Source of the DNA: Octopus vulgaris
Taxonomy: Eukaryota
Length of the DNA stretch: 64,000 bases
NCBI GenBank assembly: GCA_951406725.2
Contig: OX597835.1
Coordinates: 28,334,001 to 28,398,000, forward strand
Direction of reading: 5' to 3'
The position numbers and the translations under genes are program-made. The notes beneath the pieces are model-generated. The model was not told the origin of the DNA and made no database searches. It worked only from the letters and a program-made list of their open reading frames with translations. Below, piece by piece: positions 39,291-62,567 of this stretch. Numbering within the stretch: the first letter of the stretch is position 1; each line of letters opens with the position of its first letter.

Positions 39291-39707
39291 GGATCTTTTC
39301 GCTTTGAACGGCAGTTTTTTCTAGCGGTGTCATATGAAATTGTCACCCATAATTATAACCCTAGAATCGATCTATTGCATTTCAATCTGTTTTAGGGTTA
39401 GGGTTAGGGGTGGGGGGAAGGGTATCTTTTTTTCTTCACAAATGTAAATAAACCCAATCTGTTTCTTAAACGAGAGACATATTCATACGGCACAGAATGT
39501 TTTCACCTCAATATACGTCATTGATTGGTTGAAATTGCAGAAATTGAAGAAGAAACAACAACAAATAGCTTACAAACTATAGAATTTTCTCAATAAAGCC
39601 AAGAGAAAAAGATGTTTAATAAACACATTCTACCAGTATACGAAGTTTAAAAGTGTTTAGTTACATGGAAATTATTTTAAAAACTGCCGTTCAAACCGAA
39701 AAGATCC
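39291..39707 (+). mobile_element. MITE with ~29-bp GGATC TIRs, 8-bp TSD and internal (TTAGGG)3 (Merlin-like), copy 1
   Basis: TIR GGATCTTTTCG.TTTGAACGGCAGTTTTT; TSD TAATATAC/TAATATAT. Confidence 0.9.
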
Positions 39708-39730
39708 TAATATATTAAATGTATTATAAT

Positions 39731-39985
39731 GTAAGTGACCCGTTAGCAATCAAAACCTAAACGCAAGTTAACAGTACCGGCAATTTCTAGAAATAAGAAT
39801 AAAAAACAACTCACTATAGAAAGGTGCTTTAGCTTTCTCCCACGCTTTTCTTAAATTCATTAGGTTAGTGCTTTGTGTGGCTATTCGAGTCGTTTTTGAG
39901 TCTTATTTCTAGCAATTGCCGGTACTAATTTGTACACTTGTTTATTAACTAGCCTTTAGGTTTTGATGGCTAACGGGCCACCTAC
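39731..39985. mobile_element. Foldback MITE with long imperfect TIRs
   Basis: GTAAGTGACCCGTTAGCAATCAAAACCTAAA / TTTAGGTTTTGATGGCTAACGGGCCACCTAC, inner arms AGTACCGGCAATT.CTAGAAATAAGA, flanked by ATTATAAT on both sides. Confidence 0.8.
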
Positions 39986-40049
39986 ATTATAATATATTTA
40001 ATATGCGAGCTGGCAGAAACGTTAGCACGCCGGGCGAAATGTTTAGCAG

Positions 40050-40145
40050 TATTGAACGAAACTCCACGTATAGCATTTGAAAGAGATCGAAAATCCGTTG
40101 GTGCCAAATCAGGAGAGTACGGCGGGTGTGGAAGTACTTCCAATT
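40050..40145 (-). mobile_element. mariner transposase fragment
   Basis: LEVLPHPPYSPDLAPTDF motif, sandwiched between SINE pieces. Confidence 0.8.
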
Positions 40146-40366
40146 TCTTTACTACCCACAAGGAGCTAAACACAGAGAGGACAAACAAGGACAGATAAAC
40201 GTATTAAGTCGATTACATCGACCCCAGTGCGTAACTGGTACTTTATTTATCGACCCCGAAAGGATGAAAGGCAAAGTCGACCTCGGCGGAATTTGAACTC
40301 ACAACGTAACGACAGACGAAATACCGTTAAGCATTTTGCCCGGCGAGCTGACAATTCTGTCAGCTC

Positions 40367-40407
<41 letters not shown>

Positions 40408-40911
40408 TAATAATAATAATAATGATAATAATAATAATAATAATAATAATAATCCTTTCTATTATAGGCACAAGGCCTGAAATTTGGGGGAGGGGGATAG
40501 CCGATTACATTGGACCCCAATATTCAACTGGTACGTAATTTATCGATGCCGAAAAGAAGAAAGCTAAAGTCGACCTCGGTGGCATTTGAACCCAGAACGT
40601 GAGGACAGACGAAACGCCGCTAAGCATTTCGCCCGGTGTGCTAACGATTCTGCCAGCTCGCCGCCTTTCGCTGCCTTCATACCAATACTGTGAATGTATC
40701 ACAGTGAGGGGCAAAGTCGAATATATCGACATCAATACCTAATACTTTACTTTATATGTTTTGAGAATGAGGTTACAAAAATATGTTACCCATTTTCACT
40801 CTGTAACCTGGTTTCTGGTGACCTGTAGCTGTAGCGAGTTAACTCTGGTGCAAGGAAATGAACCAGGTTACTTGCTCTCTGAAGACGCATGGCTCAGTGG
40901 TTAGAGCGTCG

Positions 40912-60149: not shown

Positions 60150-61314
60150 TGAGGTCGTACAGCTACGTGGTGCGTATTTGTTTTGCAGTTCTTGTCCCCA
60201 GTTCATCAATTTTTACAATGGCTGAAACGAAGGATCATTGTGCTTCTGTGAAATTCTGTTTACTGCTGGGGAAAACGGTGACTGAAACAGCTGTCATGCT
60301 TGAAATAGCTTACAAGAATGCTACCGTGAGCAAAAGACAAGTTTACGAGAGGTTATTCAAGCTTTAGGAATGGTCACTTGTCGTTTGAAGACCAATCTCG
60401 TTCAGGACGACCGTCGACCTCCTGAACGAATGAAAACTCTTTTAATCTTTTACTTGTTTCAGTCATTTGACTGCGGCCATGCTGGAGCACCGCCTTTAGT
60501 CGAGCAAATCGACCCCAGGACTTATTCTTTGTAAGCCTAGTACTTATTCTATTGGTCTCTTTTGCCGAACCGCTAAGTTACGGGGACGTAAACACACCAA
60601 GCGATGTTGGGGGACACACAGACACACAAACATATACACACACATACATATATACGATGGGCTTCTTTCAGTTTCCGTCTACCAAATCCACTCACAAGGC
60701 TTTGGTCGGCCTGAGGCTATAGTAGAAGACACTTGCCCAAGGTGCCACGCAGTGGGACTGAACTCGGAACCATGTGGTTGGAAAGGAAGCTACTTACCAC
60801 ACAGCCACCCCTGCGCCTAAAGACCTCACGAAAATCCATGAATTGATCGTGGAGGGCAGTCGCCAAACAATTGACGAACTTCTTGATATGACTGGCGTGT
60901 CCTGAATTCCTGCCAACGAATTTTGAGCGAGGAATTACGAATGAAAAAAGTTGCAGCAAAATTTATGCCTTGATTGCTCACGGAAGATCAAAAGCAGTGA
61001 CGAATGAATGCATCTCGTGGACTGAAAGAACAGTTGCACGTTGATCCGAACCATTTATCGAAGGTCATCACTGGTGACGAAAGCTGGTGCTACGGAATTT
61101 GCAGATATGGAAGAGATGAGGAAAAAAGTGACGGAGGCGTTAAAAGGCATCATTTCGCACGAGTTTCAGTGCTGCTTCGAATAGTAGAAAACGCGCTTGG
61201 AATGATGCATTGCTTCAAATGGAGAATACTTTGAAGGCGATAAAAGTGTGAACATGTAAAACTAAGTGAATAAAATAATATTGCACAACTTCAGGTTTCT
61301 TATGGATACCCCTC

Positions 61315-61319
<5 letters not shown>
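60150..61319 (+). mobile_element. Internally deleted mariner element interrupted by a CORE SINE (60440-60818)
   Basis: MAE..HCASVKFC.LLGK.VTET..ML..AY, GRPST, VITGDESWCYG and CIASNGEYFEGD motifs; 3' TIR-like GGATACCCCTCG followed by (TA)n. Confidence 0.88.
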
Positions 61320-61352
<33 letters not shown>

Positions 61353-61380
61353 GTATATGTATATGTATATCTATCTATCT

Positions 61381-61413
<33 letters not shown>

Positions 61414-62128
61414 AAGAGAGAGGGGGAGAGGAGAGAAAGAGAGCCTTGCTAGCTAACGATTCTGCCAGCTCATCGACTTAATAGTAATGATGATGATGAT
61501 GGCGGTTTCAAAGATGAAAGATAAAGTCAAGATCGGCGGGATTTGAAATCAGAATGTAGAGCCGGAATATCACTAAGCATATTGTCCGACGCTCTTACGA
61601 TTCTGTCAGCTCATTGCCTTGGAGTAGTAAAAAATACTGGTTTTATATTTTGGTACCAAAAAAAAAAGAAGAAAAAAAAAAACTGTAAGTGGTAAGTCGA
61701 TTACATCAACTCCAGTACTTAAGTGTTATTTATTTTATCGACCCCAAAAAGAATGATAGGCAAAGTTGACCTCGGCGCGATTTGAACTCAGAACGTAAAA
61801 AGTCGGGAGATATGCCGCTGAGCATTTTGTCCAACATGATAACAATTCAGCCAACTCACCGGTTTGTAGTAGAGAAAAATAAAAGCGATAAATAGAAGCC
61901 ATTTTATTGATTTATTGAATTTCCTTCAGAGGGTAATCGATACTCGGAACATTTATTTAACAATACAACCCACGCAGTATATAGGATACATATCTTAATC
62001 AATACGCAAGAGAACAACTTCTTGGTAATAGTGAGACGAACTTTTGGAGGCAGCCTCGAAGATTGGCTAGAAATTGCAGTCAAATCTCCCTCAAACCACG
62101 TCCTACTCTCTTCAAGAAGAAAGAAAAC

Positions 62129-62567
62129 AGATCTTTTCAGTTTGAACAGCAGTTTTTAACATAATTTCTAGATAACTAAAAAATTTTAAACTTCGTATAC
62201 TGGTAGAATGTGTTTATAAAACATCTTTTTCTCTTGGCTTTATTGAGAAAATTCTATAGTTTGTAAGATATTTGTTGTGTTTTTTCTTCAATTTCTGCAA
62301 TTTCAACCAATCAATGACGTCCATTGAGGTAAAAAAACATTCTGCGCCGTATGAGTATGTCCCTCATTTAAGAAACAGATTGGGTTTATTTACATTTGTG
62401 AAGAAAAAAAGATACCCTTCCCCCACCCCTAACCCTAACACTAACACTAACTAACCCTAACCCTAAAACAGATTGAAATGGAATAGATCGATACTAGGGT
62501 CATAATTATGGGTGACAATTTCATATGACACCACTAGAAAAAACTGCCGTTCACACTGAAAAGATCC
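62129..62567 (-). mobile_element. GGATC-TIR telomere-repeat MITE, copy 4
   Basis: Perfect 8-bp TSD AAGAAAAC (62121-28, 62568-75); about six CCCTAA-like units. Confidence 0.9.

What the first reader, a model, noticed from the sequence alone, without database searches (positions are those of the whole stretch)
39291..62567. A MITE family that disperses telomeric (TTAGGG)n repeats: four copies, each with its own 8-bp TSD
Seen: four 412-439 bp copies (39291, 40912, 48143, 62129) share ~29-bp TIRs starting GGATC (AGATC at one end of copy 4) and have distinct 8-bp TSDs. Each carries TTAGGG units next to GGGGTGGGG at the same internal position, and unit number varies from 2 to about 6. They also carry an ACGTCA/GATTGG (CRE half-site plus CCAAT) module, intact in copies 1 and 3. 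Known: GG-starting TIRs with 8-bp TSDs are typical of Merlin/IS1016 transposons, and TTAGGG is the common metazoan telomere repeat. Inferred: a DNA transposon seeding interstitial telomere-like, G-quadruplex-capable sites that expand after insertion. Four copies within 23 kb could reflect local hopping.
Basis: partly seen in the sequence, partly recalled or inferred. Interest (0 to 1): 0.72.

Follow-up and report, generated by a model that had tools for sequence, protein, structure and literature searches.

The report
Merlin mini-transposon carrying telomere repeats
A gene-less jumping-DNA element with thousands of copies, derived from a Merlin transposon in what is likely an octopus genome, carries a short run of the telomere repeat TTAGGG and accounts for at least 45% of the places where a run of three or more such repeats begins, likely as a passenger with no function shown.

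Summary
All four copies are real: 412-439 bp, 28-29-bp TIRs, 8-bp target duplications. The family is genome-wide (11,295 exact TIRs; likely 10,000-20,000 copies). Merlin membership is shown: its right 210 bp are 71-82% identical to the end of IS1595-domain transposase copies in the same genome, including the CCAAT/ACGTCA module, which is likely the parent's promoter region. It does disperse telomere-type repeats: 2,179 of 4,845 starts of (TTAGGG)3+ carry its left anchor, and sister families of the same Merlin lineage hold most of the rest in a sample (23 of 26 loci in all). Tracts stay short and interrupted. About 80% have roughly 1-4 units, 20% have 5-10, and only 32 start with five perfect units. 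Length changes recurrently on both haplotypes, likely by contraction as well as expansion. None of 9 long arrays checked has Merlin ends. Local hopping is not supported. A G-quadruplex is predicted, not tested. This scan noted the same theme twice before on other DNA of this genome. Verdict: a Merlin MITE with hitchhiking telomeric cargo; the link to short interstitial telomeric sequences was not found in print.

The parts
39291..39707 (+). MITE copy 1 (417 bp), 8-bp TSD 7/8, three perfect TTAGGG at 39392-39409
40912..41326 (-). MITE copy 2 (415 bp), TSD 8/8, two perfect plus one degenerate unit (41208-41225); inserted into another repeat, likely a tRNA-type SINE
48143..48554 (+). MITE copy 3 (412 bp), perfect 29-bp TIRs, TSD 8/8, two TTAGGG at 48244-48255; inserted into another repeat
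62129..62567 (-). MITE copy 4 (439 bp), TSD 8/8, interrupted tract of about 6.7 units at 62427-62466
48344..48554 (-). Right ~210 bp of copy 3: homolog of the end (long TIR arm / 5' region) of Merlin transposase-bearing elements; the same arm lies at 39498-39707, 40912-41120 and 62130-62333
   Evidence: 77-84% identity to the ends of L131 and L134; alignment
48360..48376 (-). CCAAT box plus ACGTCA half-site, conserved in the transposase-bearing copies 300-550 bp upstream of the ORF; likely a remnant transposase promoter (inferred)
48244..48276 (+). TTAGGG tract plus G-rich tail; predicted G-quadruplex (G4Hunter 2.3; four G-tracts)
   Evidence: prediction only

Best explanation
This is a non-autonomous Merlin-superfamily MITE, an internal-deletion derivative of a long-TIR Merlin transposon, which was likely copied to 10,000-20,000 sites by a related Merlin transposase and carries a short TTAGGG tract as a likely neutral passenger, making it the largest single source of short interstitial telomere-type runs in this genome. 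Shown: the TIR/TSD structure, homology of the right arm to transposase-bearing copies, genome-wide abundance, the share of (TTAGGG)3+ starts, and tract length unlinked to haplotype. Inferred: mobilisation in trans about 10 million years ago; entry of the tract once or a few times into non-autonomous ancestors (double-strand-break filling or slippage of a native GGTTTTAG motif); later slippage in both directions; no host function.
For: Merlin: PF12762 hits genome-wide (the L082 locus scores 53.7 bits, over the cut-off). MITE positions ~202-412 align at 71-82% to sequence 300-550 bp upstream of the transposase, TIR facing inward, in 9 independent loci (L101, 102, 106, 108, 110, 112, 113, 114, 115), and to the downstream end in L094/L105 and L135. 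A related complete element, L148 (1,559 bp), has a similar TIR and an 8/8 TSD. TSDs: 49 of 71 full copies have an 8-bp TSD at 7/8 or better, 2 have an exact 9-bp. Abundance: 11,295 exact TIRs; 5,055 exact inner-anchor matches. Share of short ITS: 2,179 of 4,845; 23 of 26 distinct loci among the first 30 matches on C1 lie in this Merlin lineage. Slippage: two tightly linked SNP haplotypes (p<=0.001), yet long tracts split 11/8 and two-unit tracts 10/6 at the SNP next to the tract (p=1.0). Passenger status: no significant conservation of the repeat bases (4/240 against 3.8% elsewhere, p=0.09).
Against: No transposase-bearing copy with the MITE's exact TIR, an intact ORF or the MITE's own tract was found among the 70 loci fetched from the PF12762 hit list and the 30 closest relatives, so the mobilising transposase is not identified. 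TTAGGG-like runs recur in several Merlin-type families, in both orientations, and in the 3' part of some transposase-bearing copies, which pure neutrality does not explain well. Repeat bases trend towards being more conserved (p=0.09, small sample). The 23/26 sample comes from the first 49 Mb of one chromosome only.
Confidence: 0.8

Rival explanations
1. The TTAGGG/G-rich module helps the element move: a host telomere-repeat factor or a G-quadruplex near the end would aid synapsis or protect excised ends, so Merlin derivatives that carry it amplify more.
For: Tracts occur in at least four families of the lineage and in a family with different TIRs (L040, L072), and in conserved 3' sequence of transposase-bearing copies L137, L139, L141 and L136. 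The predicted G4 is kept in 78 of 98 copies. Repeat bases are slightly more conserved.
Against: One- and two-unit copies are common (about 40 of 100) and two-unit copies are as old as long ones (3.8% against 4.0%). Long tracts are mostly interrupted (longest perfect run 2 or fewer in 12 of 20). A young, complete Merlin family with other TIRs showed no TTAGGG doublets.
Confidence: 0.12
2. One reading: copies seed short tracts that then expand after insertion into long interstitial telomeric arrays, and clusters arise by local hopping.
For: 20% of anchored copies have 5-10 units; length is unlinked to haplotype; a longer sister family reaches about 19-29 degenerate units (L205, L208, L209). One close pair 5 kb apart (1.7% apart, distinct TSDs) differs by two units.
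Against: Only 32 anchored copies start with 5 or more perfect units. 0 of 9 long arrays have Merlin ends. About 89 of 100 long tracts share an inherited half-unit (counted by eye). Within-cluster distance is 6.5% against 5.7% between clusters, permutation p=0.99, and the nearest relative is in the same cluster for 3 of 28 copies.
Confidence: 0.1
3. The tract is not of telomeric origin at all but a microsatellite that grew by slippage from the Merlin's own GGTTTTAG motif and only resembles the telomere repeat.
For: In sister family C the tract starts exactly at a GGTTTTAG motif also found in the parent's upstream region and mixes 8-bp and 6-bp units.
Against: In family B the tract lies in the opposite orientation and replaces an internal segment, as break-filling would. 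The units in this MITE are exact telomere hexamers. This rival concerns origin only and is compatible with the best explanation.
Confidence: 0.35

Closest known systems
Merlin/IS1016 superfamily and its non-autonomous derivatives (definition from Feschotte 2004 as given in PMC8101967; passages read)
   Same: [quoted passage not shown]
   Different: The cargo here is the telomere hexamer; 'telomer' has 0 occurrences in that paper's main text. The copy number of this one MITE is far higher than the protein-level counts there.
MITEs with hitchhiking microsatellites or tandem repeats (Xenopus Xstir; insect (GTCY)n MITEs; seen as table rows and references in PMC6947457)
   Same: A simple repeat rides inside a MITE and varies in unit number.
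   Different: The unit is the host's telomere repeat, and the carrier is Merlin-derived.
Short interstitial telomeric sequences of vertebrates (PMC6410037 passages; PMC8537989 abstract)
   Same: Short (2-25 unit) TTAGGG runs inside chromosomes.
   Different: Vertebrate short ITSs are attributed to one-by-one insertion at double-strand breaks; transposition by mobile elements is mentioned there only as a possibility for large blocks. Here one inherited tract was multiplied by DNA transposition.
Ciliate telomere-bearing elements (Oxytricha TBE, Tetrahymena Tel-1; recalled, no call)
   Same: DNA transposons that contain telomere repeats.
   Different: There the repeats form the element's termini; here they are internal, about 100 bp from the left TIR.

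Membership tests
Merlin superfamily | TIRs 24-462 bp starting 5'-GG | tested here: met
   28-29-bp TIR starting GGATC in window and genome copies
Merlin superfamily | 8- or 9-bp TSD | tested here: met
   41 exact 8-bp, 8 at 7/8, 2 exact 9-bp, 1 imperfect 9-bp and 19 with none, of 71 full copies
Merlin superfamily | Related to an element encoding a DDE_Tnp_IS1595 transposase | tested here: met
   Right arm 71-82% identical to the ends of 9 transposase-bearing loci; L082 locus is over the PF12762 cut-off; its first ORF piece alone scores 26.6 bits, just under the cut-off of 27
Merlin superfamily | Intact autonomous partner with the same TIR at both ends | tested here: inconclusive
   Only degraded copies with related TIRs were found; L148 has a related TIR and an 8/8 TSD; 70 of 150 scored PF12762 hits were fetched and only 150 of 476 candidates were scored
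MITE | Short, non-coding, TIR and TSD, homogeneous size, high copy number | tested here: met
   400-450 bp, about 4% from the majority sequence, 11,295 exact TIRs
hAT superfamily | Partner transposase of hAT type sharing the ends | not tested
   No hAT search was run because the ends map onto Merlin transposase copies
Catalogued Dfam/Repbase family | Match to a deposited consensus | not testable with these tools
   No eukaryotic repeat library is available; the library of PMC13282606 is on Zenodo and was not seen
Functional telomere-like site | G4 folding and telomere-protein binding | not testable with these tools
   G4 predicted only

The most novel reading that the evidence does not exclude
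Most short interstitial telomere-type sites in this genome were made by DNA transposition of one Merlin lineage rather than by telomerase-type break repair, and the lineage keeps the TTAGGG/G4 module because it recruits host telomere factors that aid transposition, so thousands of binding sites for telomere proteins were scattered through the genome within roughly the last 10 million years.
Probability: 0.12. Interest if true: 0.75.

Novelty: new variant of a known kind. Interest (0 to 1): 0.42.

Why it matters
Short interstitial telomeric sequences are usually explained as scars of chromosome-break repair. Here at least 45% of the starts of such runs, and most in a sample, come from one transposon lineage, so they cannot be read as marks of ancient breaks or fusions in this genome, and telomere-motif counts or probes would be inflated by transposon copies. 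Thousands of same-age copies with 1-10 units also give a ready natural test of how short TTAGGG tracts mutate and whether they bind telomere proteins or fold G4.

Tried and rejected
Local hopping: rejected (caveat: the family tree is star-like, so power is limited). Unusual local density: 4 copies in 64 kb against 5-6 per 200 kb in the flanks and 3-4 per 200 kb sampled evenly on C22; Poisson p=0.10 and 0.03 before allowing for the window having been chosen. C22 is richer than C1, where the first 100 exact TIRs span 92.7 Mb. MITE as seed of long arrays: 0 of 9. The three very long tracts first taken for expansions of this MITE belong to a longer sister family. Copy 4's doubled TTAGTG as a private post-insertion event: inconclusive, 4 matches genome-wide on both haplotypes. 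The first complete Merlin families found (TIRs starting GGCAC, GGTTAA, GGAAAA) do not share the MITE's TIR. Read-laying could not test tract polymorphism at one locus, because contigs collapse the repeat and only 7 and 38 raw reads were laid. Pfam found nothing in four incidental ORFs. Literature: searches gave no paper, by listing and abstract, that describes a Merlin or MITE carrying TTAGGG in octopus; subscription journals and Repbase reports are not covered.

Full report
Observation. The four copies are present at 39291-39707 (+), 40912-41326 (-), 48143-48554 (+) and 62129-62567 (-), with 28-29-bp TIRs and distinct 8-bp TSDs matching 7/8, 8/8, 8/8 and 8/8. They carry 3, 2, 2 and 4 perfect TTAGGG units at the same place; copy 4's tract is interrupted and has no perfect run over two. 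The ACGTCA/CCAAT module is intact in all four, not just two. The window lies on contig C22 of G000, a 2.8-Gb genome. Its SINE and microsatellite content suggests an octopus (recalled resemblance, not tested). (TTAGGG)n is reported as the telomere repeat of one octopod (PMC6160780, passage).

Abundance. The exact 28-bp TIR occurs 11,295 times and its reversed control 0 times. Two inner anchors around the tract match exactly 5,055 times (4,027,028). In 400 kb of unselected C22 sequence, 6 exact TIRs fell among 8 full and 2 partial copies, about a third of the ends, which points to roughly 10,000-20,000 copies (inference). Of 71 full-length copies, 49 have an 8-bp TSD at 7/8 or better, 2 an exact 9-bp, 1 an imperfect 9-bp and 19 none. 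Copies are about 4% from their majority sequence, roughly 10 million years at the rate used in PMC13282606 (inference). The family is also held by runs of four coded organisms in 8 studies.

Superfamily. A PF12762 search gave 150 scored hits of 476 candidates; I fetched 70. The first complete elements found have other TIRs. One degraded family, however, begins with the MITE's right end. Searching with its transposase gave 30 loci; in 9 independent ones MITE positions ~202-412 (a shorter part in two) align at 71-82%, with the TIR facing inward 300-550 bp upstream of the ORF (alignment). The same arm closes the downstream side in L094/L105 and L135, so the parent had long inverted arms. L148 is a complete relative with a similar TIR and an 8/8 TSD. 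The CCAAT/ACGTCA module lies in this arm, upstream of the transposase, and is likely its promoter (inference). Against: no copy has an intact ORF, the exact MITE TIR or the MITE's tract, so the mobilising enzyme is not identified. The defining Merlin features (GG TIRs, 8-9-bp TSD, IS1595 domain) are from PMC8101967 (passages).

Share of interstitial telomere-type runs. There are 4,845 starts of three or more perfect TTAGGG units genome-wide; 2,179 (45%) carry this element's exact left anchor. This is a lower bound, since mutated anchors are missed and long arrays add many starts to the total; it includes sister family D, which shares the anchor. Among the first 30 matches on C1 (26 distinct loci), 13 lie in this MITE or its palindromic relative, 10 in two sister families (B, C) whose arms are the same Merlin end, and 3 in none. 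That sample covers only the first 49 Mb of C1.

Does the tract expand? Among the first 100 of the 4,027 shorter matches, 5 have about one unit, 35 two, 31 three and 29 about four to five (lengths, binned). The 1,028 longer matches (20%) hold about 5-10 units, and about 89 of the 100 listed share a 4-bp TTAG half-unit, mostly after unit two (counted by eye). Only 32 anchored copies start with five or more perfect units. Of the 30 fetched, 27 stop at 5-8 units; the three with about 19-29 degenerate units belong to a longer sister family D. In 20 long and 20 two-unit copies, SNPs at positions 143, 208 and 357-371 form two linked haplotypes (p<=0.001, 37 copies kept, 3 split alignments dropped), but tract class is unlinked to them (11/8 against 10/6 at position 143, p=1.0). 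Length therefore changed repeatedly in both lineages. Because the half-unit is unlikely to arise twice at one place, the interrupted longer tract is likely ancestral and many short tracts are likely contractions (inference; gene conversion is an alternative). Whether changes occur in source copies or after insertion is not resolved: the test on copy 4's doubled TTAGTG was inconclusive. Runs of nearly six or more perfect units (326 starts; the first 100 listed) sit mainly in multi-kb arrays. None of the 8 multi-kb arrays and one 577-bp array whose edges I read has a MITE or Merlin arm, while 5 of 8 short sites do.

Local hopping. Copies in the same cluster are no more alike than copies in different clusters (6.5% against 5.7%, 51 and 477 pairs, permutation p=0.99). 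The nearest relative lies in the same cluster for 3 of 28 copies and for none of the four window copies, which fall in both haplotypes. The window's density is 2-4 times that of its surroundings and chromosome, which is modest for a chosen window.

G4 and function. All four copies meet the four-G-tract pattern, score 2.0-2.3 by G4Hunter and fold a quadruplex in ViennaRNA DNA mode; 78 of 98 copies keep the pattern. Much of the G-richness comes from the tail next to the repeats. The repeat bases are not significantly more conserved than the rest (4/240 against 3.8%, p=0.09). No function is shown.

Mechanism. Shown: a Merlin-derived MITE, abundant, carrying the tract, the main single source of short TTAGGG runs, with recurrent length change. 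Inferred: internal deletions of a long-TIR Merlin produced families D, C, B and this one; the tract entered by break filling or by slippage from a native GGTTTTAG motif (family C's junction fits the latter; family B's opposite orientation fits the former); a related transposase amplified the element in trans; the tract drifts as a passenger. The recurrence of TTAGGG-like runs across Merlin-type families, including the 3' part of four transposase-bearing copies, leaves open a role in transposition.

Comparison and novelty. Merlin is known to be abundant in octopus and to carry tandem repeats (PMC8101967: passages and a supplement search). MITEs carrying microsatellites are known (PMC6947457: passages). 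Short ITSs in vertebrates are ascribed to break repair (PMC6410037: passages; PMC8537989: abstract in listing). A 2026 octopus repeat annotation lists 18 Merlin families covering 2.19 Mb and its supplement has no mention of telomeres (PMC13282606: parts 1-2 of 3 and supplement search); its library was not visible, so the family may be catalogued there or in Dfam/Repbase. Eight searches found no description of TTAGGG-carrying Merlin MITEs. This scan has two earlier unreviewed notes on the same theme from other pieces of this genome; they are not independent support. Verdict: a new variant of a known kind, interest 0.42.

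Noticed in passing
L155, L157, L159, L166-L168, L174, L180 (family C); L156, L179, L062, L148 (family B); L205, L208, L209, L050 (family D): Sister foldback-type MITEs of about 530-1,000 bp whose two arms are both the Merlin end and which carry longer, degenerate TTAGGG/TTTTAGGG tracts; family C's junction has 391 matches, some double-counted.
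   Followed up: partly
L133:9069-9834; L303:5046-5855; L259; L268; L070; L108: A ~770-bp palindromic relative made of two head-to-head copies of MITE positions ~27-412, with an 8/8 TSD in L133.
   Followed up: partly
L040:2707-2972; L072; L076:1845-4579; L212: An unrelated-TIR family (ends GGCGAT, 8-9-bp TSD) shares a ~50-bp TTAGGG/G-rich module with this MITE at 82-85%; possible module swapping between Merlin-type elements.
   Followed up: partly
G000 C5:28.44-28.47 Mb, C5:55.06 Mb, C5:0.21 Mb, C6:24.64, 34.95, 61.48 Mb, C7:59.57, 59.71 Mb (L301-L314): Multi-kb interstitial TTAGGG arrays, two with inverted halves, several next to N gaps and mixed with TTAAAA or CCTGG units that resemble nanopore telomere base-calling errors (recalled); they may be misplaced true telomeres rather than real fusions.
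   Followed up: partly
L045, L046, L048, L049, L059, L061, L096; L065, L070; L083, L086: At least three other complete Merlin families with their own GG TIRs and perfect 8-bp TSDs, some with ORFs over 300 codons and near-identical copies, so possibly recently active.
   Followed up: no
L082/L138:2500-9000; L097:4358-4833; L131: Minisatellite arrays of 114-118 bp (about 55 bp in L131) inside Merlin transposase-bearing copies.
   Followed up: no
L185:1409-1845: A copy of this MITE inserted inside the arm of a family C element.
   Followed up: no
C1 against genome average: Copies are sparser on the largest chromosome: 84 of the 2,179 anchored three-unit tracts lie on the 226-Mb C1, about half the genome-wide density.
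   Followed up: partly
window 33929-34516 (-); 5843-6777 (+); 188-649 (+): Open frames that look by eye like a pogo/CENP-B-type DNA-binding fragment and retroelement ORF1-like pieces; Pfam found nothing.
   Followed up: partly
window 36410-36905, 48812-49186, 18728-19161: Tandem 184-bp and 217-bp arrays of the window's most common SINE-like repeat.
   Followed up: no
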